Notes under the pieces: generated by a model | What the model saw: only the letters and a program-made list of their open reading frames with translations | Databases searched by the model: none | What the model was told of the DNA's origin: nothing | Part shown: positions 3,129 to 44,052 of the stretch, piece after piece | Layout: each line of letters starts with the position of its first letter | Numbering within the stretch: the first letter of the stretch is position 1 | Origin: Burkholderiaceae bacterium | GTDB lineage: Bacteria; Pseudomonadota; Gammaproteobacteria; Burkholderiales; Burkholderiaceae_A | Assembly (NCBI GenBank): GCA_018882795.1 | Contig: VERJ01000002.1 | Span: 12,049-76,048, forward strand | Reading direction: 5' to 3' | DNA length: 64,000 nucleotides | Translations under genes and position numbers: made by a program

Positions 3129-4532
3129 ATGAGTTTTGATGCGTTTGGCCTGCATCCCGATTTGATGCGGGCAATTGCCGAGTTAGGCTACACCACCCCC
3201 ACCCCGATCCAGTCCCAGGCGATCCCCGTCGTGATTGAGGGCAAAGACGTCATGGGCGCCGCCCAGACGGGCACGGGCAAGACGGCCGCATTCACCCTGC
3301 CCATTTTGCAGCGGCTGATGGCCTATGCAAATACCAGTGCCTCGCCCGCGCGACACCCGGTGCGGGCATTGATTCTTGCGCCCACGCGCGAGCTCGCCGA
3401 TCAGATTGCCCAGAATGTCAGTCAATACGCCAAGCATGTGCCGCTAAAAAGCGTCGTTGTGTTTGGTGGTGTGGACATGACGCCGCAGACTGCCGCATTG
3501 CGATCGGGTGTTGAAATCTTGATTGCAACGCCTGGCCGCCTGCTGGATCATGTCCAGCAGAAAACAGTGTCGCTTGCTTCGGTCTCGGTCCTGGTCCTTG
3601 ATGAGGCTGATCGCATGCTGGACATGGGCTTTCTTCCCGACCTGCAGCGTATTGTGAACCTGCTGCCGAAGGCCCGTCAGAGCCTGCTTTTTTCTGCCAC
3701 TTTTTCGCCCGAGATCCGCAAGCTCGCCAAAACGTTTCTGAATGACAGCCCTGTGGTAATTGAGGTCGCTGCCCGAAACGCCACGGCCGATAACGTCTCG
3801 CAGGTGGTCTTCATGGTCGATCGGTCCGAGTCCAAGCGCGCGGCGGTGGCCCATCTGGTGAAGAGCCGGGGCCTAAGGCAGGTGATTGTGTTCACCAACA
3901 CCAAAATTGGTGCGAGTCGTCTGGCCCGAGAACTTCAGCGTGAGGGCATCCCTGCGGATGCGATTCACGGCGATAAATCCCAGGGCGAGCGGCTTGCAAC
4001 TCTGGAAAAATTTAAAAAAGGCGAGGTTGAGGTCATGGTGGCCACCGATGTTGCGGCCCGCGGCCTGGATATTGCCGAGCTTCCGGCTGTGATCAACTAT
4101 GACTTGCCGTATTCGCCTGAAGATTATGTGCATCGGATTGGCCGCACAGGCCGTGCGGGTGCCAGCGGCCAGGCAATGTCGCTGATGGTCCCTGAGGATG
4201 CACGGCTTCTTGCTGATATTGAAAAGCTGGTGCGCAAGACCATCACAAGGGAATCCCTGCGGATTGAGCGTGCATCGCGCGGTGGGTCATCGTCTTACGA
4301 ATCACCAAGACCAAAATCCTATTCGGTGCCCAAAGCGGTCAAGGCAGTGCCTGCTGACCCGATTTTTTCTCAACCCTACGTACCCAAGGCCGCATCTTCT
4401 GAGCAGGTCGGTGAGGCCGCGGTATCGGCAACGACTGTCCAGCCCACAGTTGCAGGAAAATCCACGCCATCGGGCATCAAGCGTGCCCCGAAAACGGTGC
4501 CCTCACTGCTTGGTGGTAAGCGCAAAACCTAG
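3129..4532 (+). CDS. rhlE: DEAD-box ATP-dependent RNA helicase (RhlE-like)
   Basis: Helicase motifs are AQTGTGKT, PTRELA, VLDEADRML, FSAT and HRIGRTGRAG, followed by a Pro/basic-rich C-terminal tail. The start is taken at ATG 3129 (MSFDAFGL). Confidence 0.9.
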   Translation: MSFDAFGLHPDLMRAIAELGYTTPTPIQSQAIPVVIEGKDVMGAAQTGTGKTAAFTLPILQRLMAYANTSASPARHPVRALILAPTRELADQIAQNVSQYAKHVPLKSVVVFGGVDMTPQTAALRSGVEILIATPGRLLDHVQQKTVSLASVSVLVLDEADRMLDMGFLPDLQRIVNLLPKARQSLLFSATFSPEIRKLAKTFLNDSPVVIEVAARNATADNVSQVVFMVDRSESKRAAVAHLVKSRGLRQVIVFTNTKIGASRLARELQREGIPADAIHGDKSQGERLATLEKFKKGEVEVMVATDVAARGLDIAELPAVINYDLPYSPEDYVHRIGRTGRAGASGQAMSLMVPEDARLLADIEKLVRKTITRESLRIERASRGGSSSYESPRPKSYSVPKAVKAVPADPIFSQPYVPKAASSEQVGEAAVSATTVQPTVAGKSTPSGIKRAPKTVPSLLGGKRKT

Positions 4533-5431
4533 CAGGTTGGCGCAACAGGTTTGATCGGCTGCTGACGCAGTCGCGCCCAACATCCCTCGACCCTGGCGAG
4601 CCAGCTCGGGGGCATGTGAAATTCAAGATATGACCAGGCGAAATCCAGTTGAAGTTGAATCACTTCTGCACTGTCGATGCGCAGCGGCGGTGCCTTGGTC
4701 TGCTTGGAGAGTTTCTCGCCCTGATCATTTTTCACAACCGGCACATGCTGTACATAGGGCTGGGGCAGGCCCAAGGCCTCGCGCAGGGCCTGGTGTCGGG
4801 GGGCGGCATGCAGCAGATCATCGCCGCGCAGGATATGCGTGATGCCTTGGAAACCATCATCAACCACCACTGCCAGATGGTAGGCCCAGAAGCCATCGGC
4901 ACGTCGCAGCAGGAAATCATCACCATTGTCATTGCGAAAGCGCCATGAGCATCCCTCACGGTCTTCTTGACGAAAAAAGACTTCGGCGCGGGGCTGGGTC
5001 ATGCGCTCCGGCTGCTGTGGTCTACAGTAGCCTGGGTAAATAATTTCACCATCGGGATTGTGGGTGGTCTTACCTGATCCCACCGCGTATTGAAGCCGTT
5101 TGCGCGAACAGGTGCAGGGATAGACACGGCCTGCCGCAATAAGCGTTTCCAATGCGGCAAGATAGGCATCATGGCGGCTGCTTTGAAACAGTACCCCCAT
5201 GCGCGATTCCCTGTCTTCCCATGCATCCCAATGCAGACCGTGGGCGGAGAGCTGCTGAAGAATCAGGTCGGCAGCGCCGGGTTCCTCGCGCGGTGGATCC
5301 AGATCTTCCACACGCACCAGCCACTGCCGCCCATTGGCCCGCGCATCCAGCCAACTGGCCAGGGCCGTGACCAGTGAGCCCAGGTGCAGGGGGCCGGTGG
5401 GGGAGGGGGCAAAACGGCCTTTCGCTTGCAA
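4529..5431 (-). CDS. gluQ: glutamyl-Q tRNA(Asp) synthetase
   Basis: 300 aa truncated GluRS paralogue with FAPSPTGPLHLGS (HIGH-type) and KLSKQ motifs and no anticodon-binding domain. Confidence 0.85.
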   Translation of the reverse strand: MQAKGRFAPSPTGPLHLGSLVTALASWLDARANGRQWLVRVEDLDPPREEPGAADLILQQLSAHGLHWDAWEDRESRMGVLFQSSRHDAYLAALETLIAAGRVYPCTCSRKRLQYAVGSGKTTHNPDGEIIYPGYCRPQQPERMTQPRAEVFFRQEDREGCSWRFRNDNGDDFLLRRADGFWAYHLAVVVDDGFQGITHILRGDDLLHAAPRHQALREALGLPQPYVQHVPVVKNDQGEKLSKQTKAPPLRIDSAEVIQLQLDFAWSYLEFHMPPSWLARVEGCWARLRQQPIKPVAPTC

Positions 5432-32234: not shown

Positions 32235-32387
32235 ATGGCAGACCCAAACAAAGTATGGCCCACCGGCCTTACCGAGGCTGAATCGGAAGAGATTCACCGC
32301 AATGTGATTCAGGGCACGCAAATTTTCGGGATGATCGCTGTCCTGGCGCATTTGCTCGCTTACATCTATTCACCTTGGTTGCACTAA
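32235..32387 (+). CDS. pucB: light-harvesting complex 2 beta polypeptide
   Basis: This is the internal ATG of ORF 32091..32387, preceded by AAAGGAG. The protein MADPNKVWPTGLTEAESEEIHRNVIQGTQIFGMIAVLAHLLAYIYSPWLH aligns along its length with R. sphaeroides and Rbl. acidophilus PucB (NKVWPSGLT..., ...AH..., PWL). Confidence 0.9.
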   Translation: MADPNKVWPTGLTEAESEEIHRNVIQGTQIFGMIAVLAHLLAYIYSPWLH

Positions 32388-32399
32388 CAGGAGCCGATC

Positions 32400-32588
32400 A
32401 TGATCTATGGAAAAATTTGGTGCGTCGTTAAGCCCACGGTTGGTATTCCTTTGTTCCTTGCTGGTGTTGCCGTGACCTCGTTCGCAGTTCACCTTGCACT
32501 GATCAACAACACCACCTGGATCAAGGACTATCATCAGGGTGGTCAAAAAGCTGTTGCGGCCCAGCAGGCGCAAGCGGTTAAGAAGTAA
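32400..32588 (+). CDS. pucA: light-harvesting complex 2 alpha polypeptide
   Basis: MIYGKIWCVVKPTVGIPLFLAGVAVTSFAVHLALINNTTWIKDYHQGG... compares with R. sphaeroides PucA (GKIWLVVKPTVGVPLFL...IHAAVLTTTTWLPAYYQG). It has a 15-aa Ala/Gln/Lys C-terminal extension. Confidence 0.9.
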   Translation: MIYGKIWCVVKPTVGIPLFLAGVAVTSFAVHLALINNTTWIKDYHQGGQKAVAAQQAQAVKK

Positions 32589-32608
32589 CGGAAGTTTTCT
32601 TCCCAGAG

Positions 32609-32642
32609 GGTTCCAGAGTCTTCCGGCTTTGGAACCTTTTTT
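32609..32642 (+). terminator. intra-operon rho-independent terminator/attenuator between pucA and pucC
   Basis: The hairpin is GGTTCCAGAG-tcttccgg-CTTTGGAACC, a 10-bp stem with one G-T pair, followed by TTTTTTCTTT. A smaller hairpin, GGAAG-tttt-CTTCC, lies at 32590-32603. Confidence 0.7.
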
Positions 32643-32686
32643 CTTTGTGTGCAAACTGATCTCCGGTTTTTCTAGAATACAAAACC

Positions 32687-34108
32687 GTGAACCGCTTTAG
32701 CCAATCCCTGATCCGATCCTGGGCATCACTCGGGCCGCGATTTCTTCCATTCGCAGATGTCGCCACGCCTGATCTGCCCTTGTCGCGCCTGTTGCGACTC
32801 TCACTTTTTCAGATATCCGTGGGCATGGCCCTGGTCATGCTGGTGGGTACACTGAATCGGGTCATGATTGTCGAGCTGAAGGTGCCCGCCACTCTGGTGG
32901 CGGTCATGGTGTCCTTGCCGATCGTCTTTGCGCCGTTTCGGGCGTTGATCGGTTTTCGATCTGATATTCATCGCTCCGAATTAGGTTGGCGCCGTGTGCC
33001 CTACATCTGGATGGGCACCATGTTGCAGTTTGGCGGCTTTGCCATCATGCCGTTTGCGCTGCTCGTGCTCTCTGGTGCAGGCCATGCCGCAAACGCGCCA
33101 GCATGGATTGGTCAGGCAGGTGCAGCGATCGCTTTCCTGTTGGTGGGCGCAGGCATGCACACAGTACAGACGGTGGGCCTGGCCCTCGCAACTGACCTCG
33201 CTCCCCAGGAGTCTCAACCCAAGGTGGTGGGGTTGATGTATGTCATGTTGCTTTTGGGCATGATTGTCAGTGCCTTGACCTTTGGTGTGCTCTTGGCGGA
33301 TTACAGCCCGGGCCGTTTGGTGCAGGTGATCCAGGGGGCCGCACTCGTGACCATGGTGCTCAATGTGCTCGCCCTCTGGAAGCAGGAAAGTCGCGACCGT
33401 TCGCGTAAACATCCTCCCGCGCCCGATCCGACGTTCCGAGAATCTTGGTCCAGTTTTACGCAGGGCGGTGCAGCTCTGCGTCGACTGCTCGTTGTGGGCT
33501 TGGGGACTATGGCGTTTGCCATGGAAGATGTATTACTTGAGCCCTACGGCGGCGAGATTCTCAAACTCAGCGTCGGATCTACGACGCTTCTGACAGCAAC
33601 GCTCGCGTTTGGCAGTCTGATTGGTTTTGGTTTTGCATCCCGGGTGTTAAGCCGTGGTGCGGATCCTTATCGTATGGCCGCCTTCGGGGCCCTTGCCGGG
33701 ATACCAGCCTTTGTTGCTGTCATCATTGCTGCGCCTCTACAGTCGACTCCAGTGTTTGCAATGGGTACTTTCTTGATTGGCCTCGGAGCGGGGCTCTTTG
33801 GCCATGGCACGCTTACTGCCACCATGCAGCATGCACCAAAACATCAGGTGGGCCTGGCGCTTGGCGCCTGGGGCGCTGTACAGGCCACTGCTGCGGGTGT
33901 GGCCATGGCCATAGGCGCTGTGATGCGCGATCTGATCGTGGTGATGGGCTCGCCTGAATTGCCTGGGCTTGGCTTTGCTGGAGCAGCCAGCGGCTATGTC
34001 GTTGTGTATATCATTGAGACTGTATTGCTGGTGGCCACTCTGGTGTGTATGGCCCCACTGATAAAAAAAGGCAGGTCAGGGGAGTTCACAGGTTCAGCCG
34101 CTCATTGA
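32687..34108 (+). CDS. pucC: PucC/LhaA-family (BCD-type MFS) LH assembly protein
   Basis: It carries LPFADVATPDLPLSRLLRLSLFQISVGMALVMLVGTLNRVMIVELKVPA...GWRRVPYIW, characteristic of PucC/LhaA. It has 12-TM length and a GTG start. Confidence 0.9.
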   Translation: MNRFSQSLIRSWASLGPRFLPFADVATPDLPLSRLLRLSLFQISVGMALVMLVGTLNRVMIVELKVPATLVAVMVSLPIVFAPFRALIGFRSDIHRSELGWRRVPYIWMGTMLQFGGFAIMPFALLVLSGAGHAANAPAWIGQAGAAIAFLLVGAGMHTVQTVGLALATDLAPQESQPKVVGLMYVMLLLGMIVSALTFGVLLADYSPGRLVQVIQGAALVTMVLNVLALWKQESRDRSRKHPPAPDPTFRESWSSFTQGGAALRRLLVVGLGTMAFAMEDVLLEPYGGEILKLSVGSTTLLTATLAFGSLIGFGFASRVLSRGADPYRMAAFGALAGIPAFVAVIIAAPLQSTPVFAMGTFLIGLGAGLFGHGTLTATMQHAPKHQVGLALGAWGAVQATAAGVAMAIGAVMRDLIVVMGSPELPGLGFAGAASGYVVVYIIETVLLVATLVCMAPLIKKGRSGEFTGSAAH

Positions 34109-34393: not shown

Positions 34394-35530
34394 ATGCGGG
34401 GAGGGGGTATGCCGCCCGACGTTCTGGTTGCGCTTTTCGGGCAGGCCAATATCCAAATCAATGGGTCACAACCCTTCGATATTCAGGTGCATGATTCACG
34501 GGCCTACCGCGCCATTCTGGCCAACTGGTCACTCGGTTTGGGCGAATCCTATATGGATGGTCTCTGGGACTGCGAGCACCTTGATGAACTGATTACACGC
34601 CTGCTGTCGGCAAAGCTCTATGACCGTGCAGTTGGCCTGACAAGGCTGCGTCTGACAGGCCACGCGCTGCGCGCTCGTTTAATGAATCTGCAGTCTCCCA
34701 CCCGCGCATTCCAGGTGGGTGAGACCCATTACAACATTGGCAATGATTTATTTGAGCGGATGCTCGATCCTCTGATGATCTATTCGTGTGCGTATTGGGA
34801 AAGGGCTGCCGATTTGGCACAGGCCCAGGAAGATAAGCTGGAGATGATCTGCCGCAAGCTCGCGCTCAAGCCGGGCGAGCGGCTTTTGGATATTGGCTGT
34901 GGCTGGGGTGGCTTGGCGCACTACGCTGTAACTCGCTATGGGGTGTCGGTTCACGGTATCACGGTGTCAAGGGAGCAAAGGCAGCATGCCTTAGAGCGAT
35001 GTGCGGGGCTACCTGTCACCGTAGATCTCGTGGATTACCGGGAACTTTCTGGGGTGTATGACAAGATCGTGTCGGTCGGTATGTTTGAGCACGTCGGCCC
35101 AAAAAATTATCAGACTTATTTCAATACGACCCATCGACTGCTTGCCGATGAGGGGCTATTTCTGCTGCATACCATCGGAGGAGATGTCACGGCGCCATCT
35201 GTTGATCCATGGATTGATCGCTATATTTTTCCAAATGGGAAAATTCCTGGGCCGAGTGAACTTTTGGCTGCAATGGAGGGCCGCTTTTTGTTGGAAGACT
35301 GGCATAACTTTGGCCCGGATTACGACCGAACACTCATGGCCTGGGAGGCCAACTTTGTGGCCCGATGGCCAGAGATCAGCGCGACCTATGGTCAGCGGTT
35401 TTTTCGTATGTGGCGCTATTACCTCTTGGCCTGCGCGGGATATTTTCGCTCGCGTCAAGGGCAGCTTTGGCAGCTTGTGTTGACGAAACAATCCCGGAAA
35501 AGTCCATATAGGTCTTTTCGATTTTCCTAA
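34394..35530 (+). CDS. cfa: cyclopropane-fatty-acyl-phospholipid synthase
   Basis: It has the CMAS family layout: HYNIGNDLFERMLDPLMIYSCAYW, the SAM motif LLDIGCGWGGLA, and MFEHVGPKNY. The start is uncertain (ATG at 34307, 34394 or 34409). Confidence 0.85.
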   Translation: MRGGGMPPDVLVALFGQANIQINGSQPFDIQVHDSRAYRAILANWSLGLGESYMDGLWDCEHLDELITRLLSAKLYDRAVGLTRLRLTGHALRARLMNLQSPTRAFQVGETHYNIGNDLFERMLDPLMIYSCAYWERAADLAQAQEDKLEMICRKLALKPGERLLDIGCGWGGLAHYAVTRYGVSVHGITVSREQRQHALERCAGLPVTVDLVDYRELSGVYDKIVSVGMFEHVGPKNYQTYFNTTHRLLADEGLFLLHTIGGDVTAPSVDPWIDRYIFPNGKIPGPSELLAAMEGRFLLEDWHNFGPDYDRTLMAWEANFVARWPEISATYGQRFFRMWRYYLLACAGYFRSRQGQLWQLVLTKQSRKSPYRSFRFS

Positions 35531-35933
35531 GGCTAAAAGAAAGCAGCTGATCAATCATCGAAACAACTGACTGTCGGTGTTTGGGGTTGAGCCGATTCAG
35601 TTGTTGGTTCCAGGCTTCGATCTCTGGCAGCAGAAAATGCTTCGGTTTGTCGGCAAGCTGAGGTGGGCCGTGCACAAGTGACTGCTCAGACTTAAAGAGC
35701 TGATTGGCATCAATACCCAACCATTCAAGTAGTGTCTGCATGTGCAGATACTCTGGAACGCTAGATCCGATCAACCAGCGTCGAATAGACTCCTGGGAAA
35801 TGGTTTTGGCACTGCGGCAGCGAAGATTAAATTCACGCGCAATGAATGCGTTAGAAGGGACTTTGCCGAATTTGTGGCGTAGTGCGGCTCGCAGAGCATC
35901 GGAGAGGCTGGATTTGAAGGTGTCGTGACTCAT
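35376..35933 (-). CDS. HTH transcriptional regulator, paralogue 1 (XRE-like)
   Basis: The N-terminus SLSDALRAALRHKFGKVPSNAFIAREFNLRCRSAKTISQESIRRWLIGSSVPE is clearly paralogous to ORF 37616..38119. The last 155 nt overlap the cfa 3' end. Confidence 0.65.
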   Translation of the reverse strand: MSHDTFKSSLSDALRAALRHKFGKVPSNAFIAREFNLRCRSAKTISQESIRRWLIGSSVPEYLHMQTLLEWLGIDANQLFKSEQSLVHGPPQLADKPKHFLLPEIEAWNQQLNRLNPKHRQSVVSMIDQLLSFSLRKIEKTYMDFSGIVSSTQAAKAALDASENIPRRPRGNSATYEKTADHRSR

Positions 35934-35999
35934 GTCGTCCAGTTGCTTTCTTTGTTATGTACTTTTTAAATATTTTTATTTTTTAATTATATGTTCTTA

Positions 36000-36009
36000 C
36001 CCCCCCCCC
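36000..36009. repeat. homopolymeric C10 tract in an AT-rich intergenic region
   Basis: I counted it directly: c at 36000 plus nine c at 36001-36009. The flanks are A/T-rich. Confidence 0.95.
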
Positions 36010-36036
36010 ACTTAAAAAATTAAGTTTTGAAAATTT

Positions 36037-36055
36037 CTCCACATTTGGTGTGGAG
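36037..36055. promoter_or_regulatory. palindromic operator candidate IR1 (CTCCACATTTGGTGTGGAG)
   Basis: It has 7-bp inverted arms and lies between divergent HTH-1 and the Host_attach gene. Nearly the same palindrome recurs at 38195-38213. Confidence 0.45.
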
Positions 36056-36215
36056 TTTTTTCCATTGCGAAGAGGAAATCTGCACCTCTAAGCACGGCCC
36101 TTAATCAGTTAGATCGCAGGTCTCGCACGTCACGCTTTGCACACTGCGTGTGGGGCGTGGTGTGGGCTTACCGCCTAGGATGTGGTCTTTATTGCTTCAG
36201 AAACGGATGTTGAAC

Positions 36216-36662
36216 ATGAAACTGACTCCACGTACCCTCTTGGTGCTGGCTGACGGATCAAAGGCGGTGTTTTTGTGCAATCAAGGCCATAACGGCCGGG
36301 TCCGCCTAAAAGAATTACAGACCTTTTCCCAAAATAATCCGGCAAGCCGTGATCTTGGTTGGGATCGGCCTGGCCGCACCTATGCCCGTTACGGCTTTCG
36401 CCGATCAGCCTATGAAACCCATGATCCACATGACCTTGGTGAGGGCACTTTCTTGAAGGACCTTGCCCAAGCGATAGAGGGGGCGTTGGGTGCTGACGGT
36501 TATGAGCGCGTGGTGCTGATGGCCCCCCCGGAGGCTCTCGGTCAGTTACGGCAGGCGCTTGGCCCTGTGGCCAAAGATAAAGTTGATGGGACCATTGCCA
36601 AGGATTATCTGAACATGCCGCGCACGGAGCTTGAACAGATCTTGATGCGCGGTTTGCAGTAG
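36216..36662 (+). CDS. Host_attach (host attachment protein / eRF1-like baeRF) family protein
   Basis: ORF 36150..36662 is trimmed to ATG 36216. MKLTPRTLLVLADGSKAVFL...DRPGRTYARYGFRRSAYETHDPHD...FLKDLAQAIEGAL...YERVVLMAPPEALGQLRQAL...IAKDYLNMPRTELEQIL matches the family pattern as I recall it. Confidence 0.7.
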   Translation: MKLTPRTLLVLADGSKAVFLCNQGHNGRVRLKELQTFSQNNPASRDLGWDRPGRTYARYGFRRSAYETHDPHDLGEGTFLKDLAQAIEGALGADGYERVVLMAPPEALGQLRQALGPVAKDKVDGTIAKDYLNMPRTELEQILMRGLQ

Positions 36663-36701
36663 ACTTGCGGCCTTTTTGTTGAAGGAAAACTTTAATTGTT
36701 G

Positions 36702-36980
36702 ATGTTGCCCTATTACCTGTGTGCCGACTCAGAGGAAAAACTTTGGACGTGTCTTGAGGCGGCAGGCCTCGCAGATCTATCACCGCCACAGCTGGATGTC
36801 ATGGGCACCCTGTTCGAGGCCACAGGGCTGATCCTGGTAGATGAGCAGGATCACCGCTACCCGCATTTTCGTCCGCTGAAGGGCTATTACGCCGTCGTCC
36901 ATCGGGAACTGAACGAGGCCGAGCGTTCTGTGCTGCCGGTCGTGCCCAGGCCGGCTTCTATTGTCAGAATTTGCGCCTGA
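36702..36980 (+). CDS. hypothetical small protein
   Basis: 92 aa from ATG 36702 (MLPYYLCADSEEKLWTCLEAAGLADL...LKGYYAVVH). It sits between Host_attach and hsp20 on the same strand. I can name no family confidently. Confidence 0.4.
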   Translation: MLPYYLCADSEEKLWTCLEAAGLADLSPPQLDVMGTLFEATGLILVDEQDHRYPHFRPLKGYYAVVHRELNEAERSVLPVVPRPASIVRICA

Positions 36981-37615: not shown

Positions 37616-38119
37616 TTATTCTGGTGCAAATGCGGAGGGGCGAAATCCCGATTTCATCAACTCCAGCATTGCGCGTTTCTGTGCGCCGTCCAGGGCCATC
37701 AGCAATTGCAGCAGCTCAGCATCCTGAGGGCTTGCGCCATTGCTGAGCACTTCTCTGTGATGTTGCAACTCCGTTCTATCAGGCTCCTCCGTGGAGGCAT
37801 GCTGCACTGGTCTTGGATTCGCAGTAACTGGCGAACCAATCGGTGGGCGACTGCCAAAAGGCTGTGCCCTGGGCTTGAGTGCTTCATTGAAATCAAGGTT
37901 GAGCCAATTCACCAGAACCCTTAGGCGTTCCTCCTCGGGCAGAGATACGCCCCGAAGCCATCGTCGGGCGCTTTCTTGCGAGATCGGAGAGGTGTCATAG
38001 GCGCGCAAATTGAACTCGCGGGCCACGACTGCGGCAGAAGGGATTCGACCAAAGCGGCTCCTGAGTGAATCACGGAGAAGCGCTGAGAAATTTTCTTTGA
38101 TGTCATTTGATTTAGCCAT
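37616..38119 (-). CDS. HTH transcriptional regulator, paralogue 2 (XRE-like)
   Basis: ORF 37616..38158 is trimmed to ATG 38119 (MAKSNDIKENFSALLRDSLRSRFGRIPSAAVVAREFNLRAYDTSPISQESARRWLRGVSLPE). It is divergent from the adhesin operon. Confidence 0.65.
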   Translation of the reverse strand: MAKSNDIKENFSALLRDSLRSRFGRIPSAAVVAREFNLRAYDTSPISQESARRWLRGVSLPEEERLRVLVNWLNLDFNEALKPRAQPFGSRPPIGSPVTANPRPVQHASTEEPDRTELQHHREVLSNGASPQDAELLQLLMALDGAQKRAMLELMKSGFRPSAFAPE

Positions 38120-38194: not shown

Positions 38195-38213
38195 CTCCAC
38201 ATTGAATGTGGAA
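38195..38213. promoter_or_regulatory. palindromic operator candidate IR2 (CTCCACATTGAATGTGGAA)
   Basis: TCCACAT-tga-ATGTGGA is a perfect 7-3-7 palindrome. It lies 76 nt upstream of the HTH-2 start and 184 nt upstream of the adhesin start. Confidence 0.45.
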
Positions 38214-38396: not shown

Positions 38397-41300
38397 ATGG
38401 CTGAACAAAACATTTACCTTTATGCGACTCAATCTCCACCAGCGAGTGTCGACACCGGCGAGGGTGATTTTCCTTATGCACCAGGCGTTGCGCTCTCGGA
38501 TGGCACCATTTTCTATACCTGGCGCGACGATCCGTTAAAGACCGACAGTTCAGGAACTGGAATCTTTGATCCCTTCCTGACCATTCAGAAGTCGGGGTCT
38601 GAGACGGGCAGCAATCTCTACAACGGCAGTACTTATGCGACTGGCAATGCAATCAGTTCCAGTGATAACCGGACCAGTCTGCTGGAGATCAGCAAGATTC
38701 CCGTGGTGGGCATTGGCGGTATGGAGTATCTGGAGATTCGGCTTGATCTCAATGAAGTGAGCGGTGGGGGTGGCCCGAAAGCCGAGGTCCGCATGACCGA
38801 TCTCAAGATTTATGGATCGAATAACCCCGGCCTCTCATCCTTCAGTGGCCTGACGCCCCTTTATTCGATTGATCAGGCTGATTTGGACACCACGGTCCAT
38901 ATGTGGGACGACTACAACGGTAGCGGCCGCTCTGATGTGGTGATGCTGATCCCGAAGACCTTTTTCGTATCCAATCCGCAATACCTGTACTTCCAGAGCA
39001 CTTTTCAGGGCACCGATGGCGGGTTTGAAGAGTTTTCGACCCAGATTCTTCAGGCGCCGCTGGATCCTTCGATCACCATCGAAAAAACCGCTGATGTGCT
39101 GAATGCGGATCGCTCTGACGATACCGACGATATTATCGACACCGCTGGTGACATCGTGAGCTTCACCGTATTGGCGACCAATGTGGGCGATGTGGCGCTG
39201 ACCAATCCGACCATCACCGATCCCCTGATTGCGGAGAGTCTGGACATCAACGATGACGGCTTAGTCAACGCCGAGGATATCGTTGGTGGCGATGACAACG
39301 CCAATGGCTTAATGGACGTTGGTGAAACCTGGGTCTGGCAGGGTGAGTACACGGTCACCCAGGACGATATGAATTTGCGCGGCAATTACGACGGTCCGGA
39401 TGAAGATTCCATCAATGACAATGTGATCCGCAATGAAGTAGCGATTCTGACGGATGAGGGCGCCTCTGCGGATAACTTTGCAGATGCTGATCTGGACTAT
39501 AGGCCGCTGCATAGTCTGCAGAAAACCTTCGATGTCTTGAATGCTGATCGCTCGGATGACACCGATGACATCATCGATGAGGCGGGCGACATCGTTCAAT
39601 ACTCATTGAGTGTTAAAAATGACGGCAACATTACCCTGCGGGATGTTGTGATTGACGATCCCCTGATTGCCGATTCTCTGGATACCAATGATGATGGGGT
39701 CGTGGATGTATTGGATTCCACCGGTGGGGATGATGGCAATGGTCTGCTGGATGTGGGCGAGACCTGGACATTTGCCGGCGAATATTCGGTAACCCAGGCC
39801 GACATGGATGCCCGGGGTAACTATGATGAATTAGCGGATGGCACCAACGACAACGTGATTCGCAATGCCGCCAATGCTATCGCCAGCACACTGGATCAGA
39901 CGCTGGATGCTACAGCACGGGCATACACTGACTTGGATTATCGGCCGATTATCACGGTTGAGAAGGTCGATGATGTAATCAATTCAGATCGAACCGATGA
40001 CACAGATGACATTGTGGATGAGGCGGGGGATATCATCAGCTACAGCGTCGAGGTCAAAAATCTAGGCAATATCACCCTCAGTAATGTGGTGGTGACCGAC
40101 CCCCTGATCGCCGACTCCCTGGATATTAATGATGATGGCGTCGTGGATGTGCTGGATGCTACCGGCGGTGATGACAACGCCAATGGTCAGCTTGATGTAG
40201 GCGAGACTTGGACATTCGCCGGCGAGTACACCGTGACGCAGGCGGATATGGATGCCCGCGGCAACTATGATGAGCTGGAGGATGGCACTAACGACAACGT
40301 CATCCGCAACGCAGTCAGCGTTTCTGCGAAAACTCAGGATCAGACCCTGGATGCGACCAATCGCACCTACACGGAACTTGATTATCGGCCTCTGATCAGC
40401 ATCGAAAAAACTCCTGATGTGCTGAATGCAGATCGTACCGACGATCCGGACGATGAGATTGATTCTGCAGGCGACATTATTACTTACGCTATCGCGGTTA
40501 AAAATGAGGGCAACATTACGCTAACGGATGTGGTCCTGACCGATGCATTGATCGCAGACTCCCTTGATACCAACGATGATGGGGTTATCAATGTGTTGGA
40601 TGCTGCCGGAGGTGATAGCAATACCAACGGTCTGCTGGATGTGGGCGAGACCTGGACGTTTGCTGGTGAATATGCGGTGACCCAGGCCGATATTGATAAT
40701 CACGGCAACCATGACAGCATTGATCCGGACACGATCAATGATAATGTCATGCGCAACGTGGCTGCGGTCACGTCCAAGGCGGGTGATCAAAACATCTCTG
40801 ATGACACGATCGCTGATTCCCGGGTGATTTATAGCCCTGAGTTGGTTGTGACCAAGACTGCCAATGTCAGCCAGGTTGATGAGGCTGGTGATGAGATTGT
40901 CTACACCGTGACGGTGGAAAACCGTGGCAATGTGACGCTGACCAATGTGGTGGTGGCCGATCCGCTCTCGGGTCTGGATGAAACCATTGCCTCACTGGCC
41001 CCGGGTGGATCTCAGTCTTTTGATGTGAGCTACTACGCCACCCAGGAGGAGTTTGACACCAACGGTGGTGGGGATGGTGACATCGACAACACCGCTACTG
41101 CGGATAGCAACGAGACCGATGCGGTCACGGCCAGCTACGAAGTCGAACTGCTACGCAGCCCAGAGCTGTGGATTGGCAAGACCGCCAATGTCAGCCAGGT
41201 TGATGAGGCTGGTGATGAGATTGTCTACACCGTGACGGTGGAAAACCGTGGCAATGTGACGCTCACCAATGTGGTGGTGACCGACCCGCTCTCGGGCCTG

Positions 41301-42293
41301 GATCAGACCATTGCCTCACTGGCCCCGGGTGGATCTCAGTCTTTTGATGTGAGCTACTACGCCACCCAGGAGGAGTTTGACACCAACGGTGGTGGCGATG
41401 GTGACATCGACAACACCGCCACCGCTGACAGCGATCAGACCGGTCAAGTCCAAGATAGCCATGAGGTAGGCATTGTCTACGATCCTGCGATGAGTGTTTT
41501 GAAGATGGCCAATGTGGACACCGTCGACGAAGTTGGCGACATGATCCACTACACCATTGAGGTCTCCAACACCGGCAATATCACCCTGACCAACGTAACG
41601 CTGCAAGATACGCTGATCGAAGATTCGCTGGATAACGACATGAATGATGATGGCGTGATCGATGGCGATGACGGTGATGGCCTGCTGGAAGTCGGCGAGA
41701 CCTGGACCTGGCAGGGCGACTACACCGTGACTCAGGCGGATATGGATGCGGCCATGGCAAGCATGGGTGATTACTACATCCGTAACACCGCTACTGGGGA
41801 CAGTGACGAGACCGACCCGGAGACCTCCTCCGAGGAAGTCAGTCTGGTGAAGGTTGCCTTCGAAGGACTCTCTCCCGGCTATTGGAAGAACCACCCCGAG
41901 GACTGGGATGGGCTCTCTTCAGCAGCCAGCTTTGAGACCTTCTTTTTTGGCGGGCCTAAACCAGGTCTTAACTGGAAGGTGAAGACCACGGCCAATGGCA
42001 AGGACAAGTTCGCTGCTTCCCAGGACATCACGATGGAGCAGGCGTTGGCCTTGACAGGAGGTGGCGAGGCTGCCCTTGCAAGGCAGGCGGTTGCCGCGGT
42101 GCTTAACTCCCGGGATGAGGACGTGACTTATCGTTTTACCGAGTCTCAGATCAAGGAGTGGGTGTCCGAAGCGCTCTCTGGTCAGCCCGTTGATCTGGAA
42201 AACGATGGGGTGATCGAGTTTGCTGCTGGAACAGCAGCCATCGAGGGAGTCAAGAACCTTCTGGACTTCAACAACAACCTCGAGCTGATCTGA
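38397..42293 (+). CDS. large repetitive secreted protein (7 DUF11/DUF7507-like Ig-fold repeats), putative T1SS-exported adhesin
   Basis: 1298 aa with a strong SD (TAGGAGG) and no signal peptide. An N-terminal domain of about 220 aa is followed by four modules of about 147 aa, two 108-aa modules and one further module of the type xKTADV..AGDxIxYTxxVxNxGNxTLTNV. The unique C-terminal domain of about 150 aa ends ...NNNLELI. The stop lies 1 nt before the T1SS ABC gene. Confidence 0.85.
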   Translation: MAEQNIYLYATQSPPASVDTGEGDFPYAPGVALSDGTIFYTWRDDPLKTDSSGTGIFDPFLTIQKSGSETGSNLYNGSTYATGNAISSSDNRTSLLEISKIPVVGIGGMEYLEIRLDLNEVSGGGGPKAEVRMTDLKIYGSNNPGLSSFSGLTPLYSIDQADLDTTVHMWDDYNGSGRSDVVMLIPKTFFVSNPQYLYFQSTFQGTDGGFEEFSTQILQAPLDPSITIEKTADVLNADRSDDTDDIIDTAGDIVSFTVLATNVGDVALTNPTITDPLIAESLDINDDGLVNAEDIVGGDDNANGLMDVGETWVWQGEYTVTQDDMNLRGNYDGPDEDSINDNVIRNEVAILTDEGASADNFADADLDYRPLHSLQKTFDVLNADRSDDTDDIIDEAGDIVQYSLSVKNDGNITLRDVVIDDPLIADSLDTNDDGVVDVLDSTGGDDGNGLLDVGETWTFAGEYSVTQADMDARGNYDELADGTNDNVIRNAANAIASTLDQTLDATARAYTDLDYRPIITVEKVDDVINSDRTDDTDDIVDEAGDIISYSVEVKNLGNITLSNVVVTDPLIADSLDINDDGVVDVLDATGGDDNANGQLDVGETWTFAGEYTVTQADMDARGNYDELEDGTNDNVIRNAVSVSAKTQDQTLDATNRTYTELDYRPLISIEKTPDVLNADRTDDPDDEIDSAGDIITYAIAVKNEGNITLTDVVLTDALIADSLDTNDDGVINVLDAAGGDSNTNGLLDVGETWTFAGEYAVTQADIDNHGNHDSIDPDTINDNVMRNVAAVTSKAGDQNISDDTIADSRVIYSPELVVTKTANVSQVDEAGDEIVYTVTVENRGNVTLTNVVVADPLSGLDETIASLAPGGSQSFDVSYYATQEEFDTNGGGDGDIDNTATADSNETDAVTASYEVELLRSPELWIGKTANVSQVDEAGDEIVYTVTVENRGNVTLTNVVVTDPLSGLDQTIASLAPGGSQSFDVSYYATQEEFDTNGGGDGDIDNTATADSDQTGQVQDSHEVGIVYDPAMSVLKMANVDTVDEVGDMIHYTIEVSNTGNITLTNVTLQDTLIEDSLDNDMNDDGVIDGDDGDGLLEVGETWTWQGDYTVTQADMDAAMASMGDYYIRNTATGDSDETDPETSSEEVSLVKVAFEGLSPGYWKNHPEDWDGLSSAASFETFFFGGPKPGLNWKVKTTANGKDKFAASQDITMEQALALTGGGEAALARQAVAAVLNSRDEDVTYRFTESQIKEWVSEALSGQPVDLENDGVIEFAAGTAAIEGVKNLLDFNNNLELI
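39066..40832 (+). repeat. four tandem coding repeats of 438/441/444/444 bp inside the adhesin gene
   Basis: Module starts at 39066, 39504, 39945 and 40389 were located by the recurring P-x-x-x-x-(E/Q)K...NADR(S/T)DD(T/P)DD motif and the GATCG(C/A/T) landmark. Confidence 0.85.
40833..41480 (+). repeat. two near-identical tandem 324-bp coding repeats inside the adhesin gene
   Basis: Copies start at 40833 and 41157 (SPEL...). About the first 250 nt of each copy differ at only a handful of positions; the last 60 nt or so diverge. Confidence 0.9.
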
Positions 42294-42294
42294 A

Positions 42295-44049
42295 ATGCTC
42301 GTCTCTGACCAATTCGCCGCCCCGAAAGGGGCGGCGGTTCCTACTCTCCGGGAACTCCCTTCAGGAGAAGTGTTTGCCGCCCTGTCAAAGCATCGTCAGG
42401 GTCTGATAATGGTGTTCTTGTTTTCCGGCGCCATTAACCTGCTTTACCTCAGTCCGGCGATCTACATGCTGCAGATCTATGATCGCGTGCTGACCAGTCG
42501 TAGTGAGATGACATTGATCGCATTAACCGGCCTGGTCATTGCGCTCTATGTCTTTACGGGCATGCTCGAGGGCGCCCGGGCCTCGGTCATGGCCAAGCTT
42601 GGGGATGCGCTTGAATCCGAGCTCTCTCCGCGGGTCTATGAGGCCATGTTCGCCCGACAGACAAAATCTCCGGAAGGGCAGGGTAATCAGCCGCTCTGGG
42701 ATTTAAATCAGGTGCGGCAGTTTTTTTCGGGAAGTGGGCTCTATGCCCTGCTGGACTTGCCGTGGCTACCAATATTCATTCTCGCCACTTTTCTGCTGCA
42801 TCCCATCTTTGGCTGGTTCTCATTGTTGGGTGCCACGCTCTTGTTTGTCACAACGGCGATATCGGAAAGGATCGCAAGGCAGCCCTTGGCCCAAGCATCA
42901 GAGTGGACGATGGCAGCAAATGGCCTTGCAGCCAGCCAACTCAGAAACACTGAGGTGATTGATGCCTTGGGCATGCTTGTGCCCCTGGCAGGTCGATGGC
43001 GAGCACTCCAAACCAAGGCAAGGGATCTGCAGCACCGCGCCTTTGATCAGATCTCTAAACTGAGCGGCATCACCCGCACGCTGCGGCTTGTACTGCAGTC
43101 TGGCACTTTGGGCATCGGTGCCTATCTGGCGATTCAGGGCGAGATCACGCCCGGTGTAATGATCGCTGCCACGATTCTGTCCACGCGAGCGCTGTCTCCA
43201 TTGGAGTCATTGATTGCCCATTGGAAATCAATGCTCTCGACGCTTGCAAGTCAGCACCGATTGGATCGGCTGTTGAGGGATTTTGTCGCCCCCATCAAGG
43301 GGGTGTCGATCCCACGGCCGACAGGCGTCGTGACTGCGGAAAATATTTTCGTAGCGCCCCCGAGCAATAGATCATTCATTCTGAAAGGAATGACGTTCCG
43401 GCTTGATCCGGGCGAGGTCGTTGGCGTGGTGGGACCTTCCGCTGCAGGCAAGTCCACGTTAGCCCGAACTATCGTAGGCGTCTGGCCCGCCCAGCTCGGG
43501 AAATTACGTCTTGATGGTGCCGATATCCGAAACTGGCCACGCTCTGAGATTGGGCCGGTGATTGGTTATCTGCCTCAGGATATCGAGCTGTTCAGTGGGA
43601 CGGTTGGCGAAAATATCTCCCGCTTCGGCGATCTGGATTCCGAGAAGATTATCGAGGCCGCCAATGCCTGTGGCATTCACGGAATGATCCTTCGATTATC
43701 CAAAGGCTATGACACATTGATTGGCGAGGCTGGCACGATGCTTTCGGGCGGCCAGCGCCAGCTGATCGGCCTTGCACGTGCAATCTACGGCAAACCCTCG
43801 CTAGTTGTGCTTGATGAGCCCAGTTCCAATCTTGACGAGGTGGGGGACCGCTGTCTTGCCCAGACAATCAGTACGTTGCGTTCTTGGGGCAGTACGGTGG
43901 TGGTGATCAGCCACGATCCGAAACTGCTCAAGATCACCGACAAACTGATGATGGTCTTCGATGGACAGATTCGGGAGTTTGGTCCATCGGCAGAGGTCTT
44001 GACATTACTGAAGCGCGCCTCGCGCGTTCAACAGACGGAAAAGGTCTAG
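42295..44049 (+). CDS. type I secretion system permease/ATPase (PrtD/AprD type, no C39 domain)
   Basis: 584 aa with a 6-TM N-terminal domain. It has Walker A GPSAAGKST, signature LSGGQRQ and Walker B LVVLDEPSSNLD. Confidence 0.9.
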   Translation: MLVSDQFAAPKGAAVPTLRELPSGEVFAALSKHRQGLIMVFLFSGAINLLYLSPAIYMLQIYDRVLTSRSEMTLIALTGLVIALYVFTGMLEGARASVMAKLGDALESELSPRVYEAMFARQTKSPEGQGNQPLWDLNQVRQFFSGSGLYALLDLPWLPIFILATFLLHPIFGWFSLLGATLLFVTTAISERIARQPLAQASEWTMAANGLAASQLRNTEVIDALGMLVPLAGRWRALQTKARDLQHRAFDQISKLSGITRTLRLVLQSGTLGIGAYLAIQGEITPGVMIAATILSTRALSPLESLIAHWKSMLSTLASQHRLDRLLRDFVAPIKGVSIPRPTGVVTAENIFVAPPSNRSFILKGMTFRLDPGEVVGVVGPSAAGKSTLARTIVGVWPAQLGKLRLDGADIRNWPRSEIGPVIGYLPQDIELFSGTVGENISRFGDLDSEKIIEAANACGIHGMILRLSKGYDTLIGEAGTMLSGGQRQLIGLARAIYGKPSLVVLDEPSSNLDEVGDRCLAQTISTLRSWGSTVVVISHDPKLLKITDKLMMVFDGQIREFGPSAEVLTLLKRASRVQQTEKV

Positions 44050-44052
44050 CGA

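What the first reader, a model, noticed from the sequence alone, without database searches (positions are those of the whole stretch)
35986..36015. C10 homopolymer lies in the spacer of a putative promoter for regulator HTH-1: a phase-variation candidate
The minus strand of the region reads TTAAGT-GGGGGGGGGG-TAAGAACA-TATAAT. This gives a perfect -10 (35986-35991) and a weak -35 (36010-36015), separated by 18 nt, of which 10 are the G/C run (36000-36009). The element lies about 50 nt upstream of the HTH-1 start codon in a strikingly AT-rich stretch. Slipped-strand gain or loss of one C would change spacer length between 17, 18 and 19 nt. This is the mechanism used by the poly-C tracts in Bordetella fim promoters and by several Neisseria and Haemophilus promoters. 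It is the only long homopolymer I noticed in an intergenic region of this window.
Basis: partly seen in the sequence, partly recalled or inferred. Interest (0 to 1): 0.65.

Follow-up and report, generated by a model that had tools for sequence, protein, structure and literature searches.

The report
Variable poly-G tract in a regulator's promoter
A run of ten or more G/C bases sits just upstream of the conserved -10 promoter box of an uncharacterised DNA-binding regulator in uncultured freshwater Burkholderiaceae, and because it is kept at the same spot in several species while its length differs between near-identical strains, it is a credible on/off (phase-variation) switch of a kind known mainly from pathogens.

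Summary
C10 lies at 36000-36009, and the minus strand reads TTAAGT-18 nt-TATAAT about 50 nt upstream of a 185-aa gene.

Comparative data support the phase-variation reading:
- **The -10 box is conserved.** TAnAnT aligns in six species.
- **The tract is conserved.** A G/C run lies 8-11 nt upstream of that box in three species, and a fourth species' contig starts inside a G-run there, although the flanking DNA has diverged.
- **Its length differs between near-identical strains.** Strains 99-100% identical read C10-A-C (window), C12 and >=C13. A sister species reads C10, >=C22 and >=C26, and a third species G14.
- **Assemblies break there.** 9 of 20 metagenome contigs end in or at the tract.

The gene product has a confident XRE-type HTH fold but belongs to a family with no Pfam or NCBIfam model. 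A conserved palindrome, a likely operator, lies 24-27 nt upstream of the tract.

Not shown: the transcription start site, within-population switching, and any effect on expression. The -35 is weak and not conserved.

Verdict: a new member of a known kind (porA/fetA/Bordetella fim-type promoter tracts). It is unusual in driving a transcription factor in free-living freshwater bacteria.

The parts
36000..36011 (-). Homopolymeric G tract on the gene strand (C on +). It reads C10-A-C in the window and L003, uninterrupted C12 in L020, and at least C13 in L019. This is the hypermutable element.
   Evidence: A36010C is the only substitution against the window in 2163 nt (L019) and in 906 nt (L022).
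35986..35991 (-). -10 hexamer TATAAT. The predicted TSS is near 35979, which would give a leader of about 46 nt.
   Evidence: It aligns with TAGAAT, TACACT, TAAAAT, TAAAAT and TAGAAT in five other species, with positions T, A, A and T invariant. The TSS position is inferred, not mapped.
36010..36015 (-). Weak -35-like hexamer TTAAGT (3 of 6) at an 18-nt spacer. It is not conserved: TTAAGG in the C12 allele, TTGGGG and TTGAGG at 18-19 nt in the sister species.
36012..36036 (-). AT-rich stretch ending in a T-run that abuts the tract (AAATTTTCAAAACTTAATTTTTT...). A T-run next to the G-run is present in all three species that cross the tract.
36037..36055 (.). Perfect palindrome CTCCACA-N5-TGTGGAG, a candidate operator. 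Its 3' end lies 45-48 nt upstream of the -10 box in all crossing contigs.
   Evidence: The same TCCACAY-N3-RTGTGGA occurs once more in the 64 kb, upstream of the paralog HTH-2 (38196-38212). The stem sequence is conserved without covariation, and the T-run after it is not conserved, so it is not a terminator.
36138..36154 (.). Degenerate second copy of the palindrome (TGCACACTGCGTGTGGG) in the same intergenic region.
   Evidence: 2 mismatches. Related ACACGC..GCGTGT blocks are seen in L023, L006 and L007.
35376..35933 (-). HTH-1 gene, 185 aa. It has an XRE-type helix-turn-helix N-terminal domain (residues 1-80) followed by a helical C-terminal part. The family is unannotated.
36216..36662 (+). 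Divergently transcribed baeRF_family12/Host_attach gene, the first gene of a baeRF12-orf94-hsp20 cluster. It is a likely co-regulated neighbour.
   Evidence: The synteny is kept in L006, L007, L011, L023 and L029.
37616..38119 (-). Paralog HTH-2 (31% identical to HTH-1). It has the same palindrome upstream (38196-38212) but no tract.

Best explanation
The G/C run is a hypermutable simple-sequence tract, maintained by selection, inside the promoter of an XRE-type regulator gene (HTH-1).

The promoter layout on the gene strand is:
1. A conserved palindromic operator.
2. 24-27 nt of AT-rich DNA ending in a T-run.
3. A poly-G tract of 10-14 nt in contigs that cross it.
4. 8-11 nt of spacer.
5. A conserved -10 hexamer.
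6. A leader of about 45-85 nt, then the ATG.

Slipped-strand gain or loss of G during replication changes the distance and helical phase between the -10 hexamer and everything upstream of the tract, namely the weak -35-like T-rich DNA and the operator. In all assembled alleles the best -35-like hexamer sits 18-19 nt from the -10. Shorter tracts would move it towards the 17-nt optimum. Longer tracts leave only G-run at the -35 position and should shut the promoter off.

HTH-1 transcription would therefore switch stochastically and heritably. Its targets would switch with it: probably its own promoter and the divergent baeRF12-orf94-hsp20 cluster. That would split the population into regulatory subtypes.

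Shown: the anatomy, the conservation of the -10 box, tract and palindrome, the length polymorphism between near-identical strains, and the HTH fold.

Inferred: that the hexamer is the active -10, that length changes alter transcription, that switching is frequent and reversible, and what the regulon is.
For: - **Anatomy.**
- **The -10 box is conserved.** Its key positions are invariant across six species.
- **The tract is at the homologous place in other species.** Sister species read C10 in L023 and G14 in L029. The L033 contig starts GGGG immediately before TATTTAG-TATAAAAT. The flanking proteins are only 53-68% identical.
- **Alleles differ in near-identical backgrounds.**
  - The window and L003 read C10-A-C, L020 reads C12, and L019 reads at least C13, at 99.2-100% identity to the window. 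The tract substitution is the only difference in L019 and L022.
  - L023 reads C10, while L024 starts with C26 and L025 with C22, at 99.95-100% identity over more than 2 kb.
- **Assemblies break at the tract.** 9 of 20 contigs end in or at it and 2 more end adjacent to it, against a chance p of about 4e-8.
- **Spacing is held constant.** The palindrome-to-tract-3'-edge distance is 37-38 nt in every crossing contig, however it is split between AT-rich DNA and G-run: 27+10, 25+12, 27+10 and 24+14.
- **Spacer geometry.**
- **HTH fold.** pLDDT exceeds 90 over residues 1-80, and the top hits include many XRE-family regulators at rmsd 2.4-3 A.
- **Palindrome specificity.** It occurs only at the two paralog promoters in 64 kb.
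- **Long G/C runs are rare otherwise.** In 173 kb of related DNA almost all of them are tied to this family.
- **Known precedent.**
  - Poly-C between the -10 and -35 of fetA, and the porA tract, alter expression (PMC5320596).
  - Bordetella fim2, fim3 and fimX promoter C-stretches run from 7 to 22 nt, with interrupted alleles C6TC3 and C9TC8 (PMC1891110).
Against: - No TSS or expression data exist, and no RNA run holds the locus.
- Within-sample heterogeneity could not be measured, because all runs are kept as contigs only.
- The -35 is weak (3-4 of 6) and not conserved, and the consensus scanner does not call the promoter.
- More distant orthologs (L004, L006, L007, L011) have the -10 or AT-rich promoter without any tract, so the tract is not needed for expression of the gene as such.
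- The >=13, >=22 and >=26 values are lower bounds read at contig ends of single-k (k=31) Logan assemblies. Ends are the least reliable part of a contig, and poly-G read artefacts could contribute.
- All nine broken contigs are Logan contigs.
- The tract-to-(-10) offset is 11 nt in L023 against 8 nt in the window and L029.
Confidence: 0.6

Rival explanations
1. This is the same hypermutable tract, but the partner that matters is the palindromic operator rather than a -35 hexamer. The tract would set the distance and helical phase between a bound regulator (HTH-1 itself, or HTH-2) and RNA polymerase at the -10. That is how the Bordetella fim C-stretch works between BvgA sites and the -10, and how the nadA repeat works between NadR operators and the core promoter.
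For: - The palindrome is conserved and sits at a near-constant 45-48 nt from the -10.
- It is found only at the two paralog promoters.
- The -35 is weak and unconserved, and the -10 is only 4 of 6 in L029, which suggests dependence on an activator.
- C-proteins and other XRE regulators that bind palindromes upstream of their own genes are among the fold matches.
- The nadA mechanism is described in PMC2791445, and the fim C-stretch in PMC1891110.
Against: - No binding data exist.
- The palindrome centre would lie near -67 from the predicted TSS, which is not a canonical class I position. The TSS itself is only inferred.
- This rival is not exclusive of the main model.
Confidence: 0.25
2. The tract is a neutral mutational hot spot. 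It is unstable because it is a homopolymer, but its length has no regulatory consequence.
For: - No expression evidence exists.
- Orthologs without a tract exist.
- The window allele is interrupted (C10-A-C), as expected for a decaying tract.
Against: - A neutral run of 10-14 G should be lost quickly. Instead it is kept at the homologous position, 8-11 nt from the -10, in three to four species whose surrounding intergenic DNA has diverged to about 50% column identity.
- The total operator-to-tract-edge spacing is held at 37-38 nt while the G/AT split changes.
- Other long G/C runs are almost absent from these genomes.
Confidence: 0.12
3. The tract lies in a transcribed leader, either of HTH-1 from an upstream start or of the divergent baeRF12 gene. 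It would then act post-transcriptionally, through RNA structure, processing or stability.
For: - AT-rich DNA offers many alternative -10-like hexamers.
- An SSR acting through a 5'-UTR element is documented in H. influenzae (PMC12721329).
- In L012 another family member has a G11 run in its 5' UTR/RBS.
Against: - The conserved -10 block lies downstream of the tract on the HTH strand.
- No good + strand promoter brackets the tract (reading).
- There is no significant RNA structure (z = -1.2) and no Rfam family.
- The tract is 206 nt from the baeRF12 ATG, with conserved palindromes in between.
Confidence: 0.07
4. The length differences are sequencing or assembly artefacts, so the tract would be a fixed C10-C14 run.
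For: - The longest values (>=13, >=22, >=26) come only from contig ends in k=31 Logan assemblies.
- Illumina error rates rise in long G/C runs.
- All broken contigs are Logan contigs.
Against: - Crossing contigs from different pipelines already differ internally. C10-A-C is read in the window and in an ENA SPAdes contig, and C12 in a JGI contig, with both flanks present.
- A contig starting with C26+TCAAA needs at least two reads with 26 or more C under Logan's abundance filter. This point rests on my knowledge of that pipeline.
- If a clean C10 allele dominated in those samples, the graph would have been bridged as it was in L023.
Confidence: 0.05

Closest known systems
Neisseria porA and fetA (frpB) promoter tracts: poly-G or poly-C between the -35 and -10 boxes
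   Same: A G/C homopolymer of about 10-14 nt sits in the promoter spacer directly upstream of the -10. Its length differs between strains. The proposed effect is on the spacing and facing of promoter elements (PMC5320596).
   Different: - The gene here is a cytoplasmic XRE-type regulator, not an outer-membrane protein.
- The organisms are uncultured free-living freshwater Burkholderiaceae, not host-restricted pathogens.
- The -35 here is weak and unconserved.
- No expression data exist.
Bordetella fim2/fim3/fimX promoter 'C-stretch'
   Same: - Both are in the order Burkholderiales.
- Both have a long C/G run just upstream of the -10 and downstream of an activator-binding region.
- Both show a wide length range between species (7-22), with interrupted alleles in one lineage (C6TC3, C9TC8) that parallel the window's C10-A-C (PMC1891110).
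   Different: - No fim box or BvgA sites were identified here.
- The upstream conserved element is a CTCCACA-N5-TGTGGAG palindrome.
- The downstream gene is a regulator, not a fimbrial subunit.
N. meningitidis nadA: a repeat tract between NadR operators and the core promoter
   Same: A variable tract is flanked by a conserved operator on one side and the core promoter on the other, so tract length changes the spacing of distal elements (PMC2791445).
   Different: nadA uses a TAAA tetranucleotide repeat upstream of the -35. Here a mononucleotide run abuts or overlaps the -35 position. The operator-binding protein here is unknown.
Phase-variable regulons (phasevarions) and bvgS poly-C
   Same: A stochastic SSR switch acts on a regulator, so many genes could switch together. 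bvgS in B. pertussis is a regulator switched by a homopolymer (PMC1891110).
   Different: Phasevarions use DNA methyltransferases, and the bvgS tract is in the coding region (frameshift). Here the tract is in the promoter of a DNA-binding transcription factor.

Membership tests
SSR-mediated transcriptional phase variation (promoter homopolymer of the porA/fetA/fim type) | A mononucleotide tract long enough to be unstable (about 8-9 G/C or more) | tested here: met
   The window reads C10 (C12 positions). Relatives read C12, at least C13, C10, G14, at least C22 and at least C26.
SSR-mediated transcriptional phase variation (promoter homopolymer of the porA/fetA/fim type) | The tract lies within or next to the core promoter, between the -10 and upstream elements | tested here: met
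   The tract ends 8-11 nt upstream of a hexamer whose T, A, A and T positions are invariant in six species. The best -35-like hexamers lie at 18-19 nt. That the hexamer functions as a promoter is inferred.
SSR-mediated transcriptional phase variation (promoter homopolymer of the porA/fetA/fim type) | Tract length is polymorphic between closely related strains | tested here: met
   different lengths in backgrounds 99.2-100% identical. The longest values are lower bounds read at contig ends.
SSR-mediated transcriptional phase variation (promoter homopolymer of the porA/fetA/fim type) | High-frequency, reversible length switching within a clonal population | not testable with these tools
   All holder runs are kept as contigs only. 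The clustering of contig breaks at the tract is suggestive only.
SSR-mediated transcriptional phase variation (promoter homopolymer of the porA/fetA/fim type) | Tract length changes the transcript level of the downstream gene, and the TSS lies downstream of the tract | not testable with these tools
   No RNA run holds the locus.
Bordetella fim promoter family | A fimbrial major-subunit gene downstream, with a fim box and BvgA sites upstream of the C-stretch | tested here: not met
   The downstream gene is an XRE-type HTH protein. The upstream conserved element is a different palindrome. BvgA sites were not searched for as such.
XRE/Cro-C1 family HTH regulators | A five-helix HTH_3-type DNA-binding domain fold | tested here: met
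   The AlphaFold model has pLDDT above 90 for residues 1-80. Foldseek top hits include many XRE-family regulators (2kpj, 2ofy, 5woq, C-proteins, SinR, ClgR, DdrO), with TM normalised to target of 0.6-0.73 and rmsd 2.4-3.0 A. E-values are weak, 5e-3 to 0.5.
XRE/Cro-C1 family HTH regulators | A match to the curated sequence models (Pfam HTH_3 and relatives, NCBIfam) | tested here: not met
   No Pfam hit at E<=0.01 and no NCBIfam hit at E<=10. The PDB profile search gave only 2kpj at E=0.15. This is a divergent, unannotated family of more than 330 proteins.

The most novel reading that the evidence does not exclude
This may be more than one contingency locus. A whole unannotated family of XRE-like regulators in free-living freshwater Burkholderiaceae may be recurrently placed under homopolymer control, in three arrangements:
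- In the promoter (HTH-1 orthologs in three to four species).
- In the RBS/5' UTR (a G11 run abutting the ATG in L012).
- In the shared 3' coding ends of two convergent members (C13 in L008).

If so, planktonic bacteria would have transcription-factor-based phase-variable regulons. These could be linked to surface or adhesin genes and stress genes next to the regulators, and to pressure from phages or grazers.
Probability: 0.3. Interest if true: 0.75.

Novelty: new member of a known kind. Interest (0 to 1): 0.6.

Why it matters
Simple-sequence contingency loci are textbook features of host-adapted pathogens such as Neisseria, Haemophilus, Campylobacter and Bordetella. Two literature searches found nothing on homopolymer phase variation in freshwater metagenomes or in Limnohabitans.

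If this is real, the locus would show three things:
- Abundant, uncultured, phototrophy-capable freshwater Burkholderiaceae use the same bet-hedging device.
- The switch sits on a transcription factor rather than on a surface protein, so a whole regulon would be heterogeneous within a population.
- Such switches can be recognised in metagenomes by three signatures: a tract conserved in position, length differences between near-identical strains, and systematic contig breaks.

The locus also gives a first functional handle on a family of more than 330 proteins with no annotation, and on its candidate operator (TCCACAY-N3-RTGTGGA).

Tried and rejected
- **Genome scans.** The first genome-contig scan, using exact peptides of HTH-1, found no relative. 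The second scan, with an alignment, worked.
- **Metagenome scan.** The single metagenome-contig scan used both flanks with a variable gap. It returned only three chance matches in an unrelated AT-rich organism.
- **Laying reads across the tract.** A filter on 35960-35995 blocked this. Laying from 35996 worked, but only contigs are held, so within-sample heterogeneity could not be measured.
- **Other blocked or empty look-ups.**
  - No RNA run holds the locus.
  - The look-up of the exact CFA synthase found nothing.
- **Terminator reading of the hairpin at 36037-36055.** The scanner flagged it. I rejected it for three reasons. It lies between divergent genes. The T-run is not conserved in the sister species. 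The stem sequence is conserved without covariation and recurs upstream of the paralog.
- **Known RNA element or structured leader.** Rejected. The only Rfam hit was a chance match at 17 bits against an 80-bit gathering score, and the fold z-score was -1.2.
- **A + strand promoter bracketing the tract for baeRF12.** No acceptable hexamer pair was found on reading.
- **Sequence-model annotation of HTH-1.** Pfam, NCBIfam and the PDB profile search gave nothing significant. Only the fold comparison identified the HTH.

Full report
**1. The observation**

The window reads ...AATTATATGTTCTTA-CCCCCCCCCC-ACTTAAAAAATTAAG... at 35985-36024. On the minus strand this is TTAAGT (36015-36010), an 18-nt spacer (G10 plus TAAGAACA), and TATAAT (35991-35986). 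The ATG of a 185-aa ORF (35376..35933) lies 52 nt further on.

The surrounding 200 nt are 38-41% GC in a 56% GC window. C10 is the only G/C run longer than 7 in 64 kb. The consensus scanner did not report the site, because the -35 matches only 3 of 6. So the description is accurate, and the promoter call rests on the -10 box.

**2. Organism and neighbourhood**

The gene order around the tract is as follows:
- pucB, pucA and pucC (light-harvesting genes).
- A cyclopropane-fatty-acid synthase, convergent with HTH-1 and overlapping its 3' end by 155 nt.
- HTH-1.
- Divergently from HTH-1, a baeRF_family12/Host_attach gene, a 94-aa ORF and hsp20.
- A paralog, HTH-2.
- Divergently from HTH-2, a 1298-aa DUF7507/DUF11 repeat protein with a type I secretion system.

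Relatives are found only in MAGs labelled Burkholderiaceae, Betaproteobacteria, Alcaligenaceae or Bordetella sp.. Runs that hold the locus are labelled freshwater, groundwater, wastewater, aquatic, riverine or estuary metagenomes.

**3. The gene product**

HTH-1 has no Pfam or NCBIfam match. A profile search found more than 330 relatives, and the few that carry a name are called 'hypothetical protein'. An AlphaFold model built on 54 family members is confident (pLDDT above 90) for residues 1-80. Its Foldseek hits include many XRE/Cro-type HTH regulators: 2kpj, 2ofy, 5woq, R-M controller proteins, SinR, ClgR and DdrO. These superpose at rmsd 2.4-3 A over about 75 residues, although the E-values are weak. 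'HTH regulator' is therefore supported by fold, and the family is new to annotation.

**4. The -10 box is conserved**

I aligned the upstream regions of the window, a second strain and five other species. The hexamers TATAAT, TATAAT, TAGAAT, TACACT, TAAAAT, TAAAAT and TAGAAT fall into one block. The T, A, A and T positions are invariant, while the overall column identity is about 50%. This is the best available evidence that 35991-35986 is the real -10.

**5. The tract is conserved in position**

- **Sister species 2.** Its neighbour protein is 68% identical to the window's. It reads ...TTTTTTGA-G10-AGTAATATAGA-TAGAAT (L023).
- **Species 3.** It reads ...TTTTTTT-G14-TAAAGGTA-TACACT (L029).
- **Species 4.** Its contig begins GGGG-TATTTAG-TATAAAAT (L033).
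- **Two further contigs.** L026 and L032 begin immediately next to the expected position.
- **No tract.** The species of L004 and the more distant orthologs L006, L007 and L011 lack it.

Upstream of the tract, all three crossing species have a T-run and, 24-27 nt away, the palindrome C(T)CCACA-N5-(T/C)GTGGAG. The distance from the palindrome to the 3' edge of the tract is 37, 37, 37 and 38 nt. The split between AT-rich DNA and G-run differs: 27+10, 25+12, 27+10 and 24+14. This constancy suggests selection on total spacing.

**6. The tract is polymorphic where nothing else is**

Contigs carrying the identical HTH-1 or baeRF12 protein come from strains 99.2-100% identical to the window.

| Source | Tract as read |
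|---|---|
| Window and L003 (ENA) | C10-A-C |
| L020 (JGI) | uninterrupted C12 |
| L019 | starts with 13 C |
| L022 | starts with 8 C and carries the C allele at 36010 |

In L019 (2163 nt) and L022 (906 nt), A36010C is the only substitution against the window.

In species 2, L024 and L025 are 99.95-100% identical to L023 over more than 2 kb. They start with 26 and 22 C respectively, where L023 has 10.

Of 20 contigs recovered through the two flanking genes, 9 end in or at the tract, 2 end adjacent to it, and 4 cross it. Under a generous null the chance of this is about 4e-8.

Caveats:
- The values >=13, >=22 and >=26 are lower bounds read at contig ends.
- All broken contigs come from single-k (k=31) Logan assemblies.
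- Raw reads were not available, so heterogeneity within a sample is inferred, not shown.

**7. Mechanism**

With the -10 fixed, the best -35-like hexamer in each assembled allele lies at an 18- or 19-nt spacer:
- TTAAGT or TTAAGG at 18 nt in the window species.
- TTGGGG at 18 nt in species 3.
- TTGAGG at 19 nt in species 2.

One or two fewer G would give the 17-nt optimum. Two to three more G leave only G-run at the -35 position. The most likely mechanism is therefore the porA/fetA/fim type: slipped-strand changes in the tract alter the spacing and facing between the -10 and the upstream elements.

Whether the relevant upstream partner is the weak -35 or a regulator bound at the palindrome cannot be decided here. 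The palindrome occurs only twice in 64 kb, once upstream of each paralog, with a degenerate third copy in the same intergenic region. That pattern fits an operator for this HTH family and possible autoregulation.

**8. Comparison with known systems**

- **Neisseria.** fetA has a poly-C tract (10-14 nt in sequenced strains) between the -10 and -35, and porA has a promoter tract. Both alter expression (PMC5320596).
- **Bordetella.** The fim2, fim3 and fimX promoter C-stretches range from 7 to 22 nt between species. B. parapertussis carries interrupted alleles, C6TC3 and C9TC8 (PMC1891110). This parallels the window's C10-A-C against C12 or more elsewhere.
- **nadA.** A repeat tract sits between operators and the core promoter (PMC2791445).

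The present locus shares the architecture. It is not a member of the fim family, because the gene and the upstream element are different. The functional criteria of phase variation (switching rate, reversibility, effect on expression) are untestable with these tools.

**9. Other explanations**

- **Neutral hot spot.** Disfavoured by the positional conservation across species.
- **Artefact.** Disfavoured, because internally crossing contigs from three different pipelines already differ.
- **Leader or RNA role.** Disfavoured by the position of the conserved -10, by the absence of an Rfam family, and by the absence of significant structure.

**10. A wider pattern**

In 173 kb of window plus related loci, almost every G/C run of 8 or more is tied to this gene family:
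- A C13 run lies in the overlapping 3' ends of two convergent family members in L008. One ends ...PPPPK*, the other ...GGGG*, and both are unusually short.
- A G11 run abuts the start codon of a second member in L012.
- A C8 run lies in codons 13-15 or so of the adhesin ortholog next to HTH-2 in L009 and L010.

HTH-2-type paralogs never carry a tract. This recurrence is the basis for the more novel reading.

**11. Verdict**

It is strengthened considerably by conservation and polymorphism, with corrections to the -35 and to the +/-1 model. This is a new member of a known kind of switch, in an unusual organism and on an unusual class of target. Two literature searches on such organisms returned no papers.

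Noticed in passing
window 36038-36054, 38196-38212 and 36138-36154: The palindrome TCCACAY-N3-RTGTGGA occurs exactly twice in 64 kb, once upstream of each paralog (HTH-1 and HTH-2). A 2-mismatch copy lies in the HTH-1/baeRF12 intergenic region. Similar CCACA..TGTGG palindromes precede family members in L009, L012, L015, L023 and L029. It is a candidate family operator.
   Followed up: partly
L008 4371-4383: A C13 run lies in the overlapping 3' ends of two convergent members of the same HTH family: 3989..4390 (+), ending ...YFTPPPPK*, and 4368..4736 (-), ending ...VISGGGG*. Both are short (133 and 122 aa, against 165-187 aa usually). One tract could therefore shift the C-terminal reading frame of both genes.
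   Followed up: partly
L012 4673-4683: A G11 run directly abuts the start of a second family member (G11-TG-ATG, gene 4686..5075). It lies about 90 nt downstream of a TATAAT box, so the homopolymer is in the 5' UTR/RBS.
   Followed up: partly
L009 3664-3671 (same in L010 2269-2276): A G8 run (C8 on the coding strand) falls in codons 13-15 or so (S-P-P-A) of the ortholog of the window's giant DUF7507/DUF11 protein, which is divergent from the HTH-2 ortholog. The window's own copy (from 38397) has no such run.
   Followed up: no
window 35376-35530: The 3' end of HTH-1 overlaps the 3' end of the convergent cyclopropane-fatty-acid synthase gene by 155 nt. The overlap (155-182 nt) is kept in the orthologs L001, L004 and L029. 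The C-terminal 45 residues of HTH-1 are unusually conserved but modelled at low confidence. This raises the possibility of antisense or transcriptional interference, or of doubt about the true stop.
   Followed up: no
window 38397-46415: A 1298-aa DUF7507/DUF11 repeat protein is followed by an ABC transporter, a HlyD-type protein and an OEP/TolC-type protein. Together these look like a giant adhesin-like protein with its own type I secretion system, divergently transcribed from HTH-2.
   Followed up: partly
window 32238-34108: Two small ORFs with light-harvesting beta and alpha features (32238..32387 and 32400..32588) lie upstream of pucC. The same pucBA-pucC-cfa-HTH order occurs in L004, where they hit PF00556 LHC. 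The host is therefore probably a phototrophic freshwater Burkholderiaceae.
   Followed up: partly
window 36696-36980: A 94-aa ORF between baeRF12 and hsp20 is conserved in position in L019, L021, L023-L028 (92-94 aa). It matches no NCBIfam model, and no Pfam hit is on record for its orthologs.
   Followed up: no
L004 1-60: The species of L004 has the conserved -10 block (TATAGAAT) but no G-run. Only a left-half-like remnant of the palindrome (CTCCTCATCAATT) lies close to the -10, as if about 37 nt including the tract were absent. The contig ends there, so this is unresolved.
   Followed up: no
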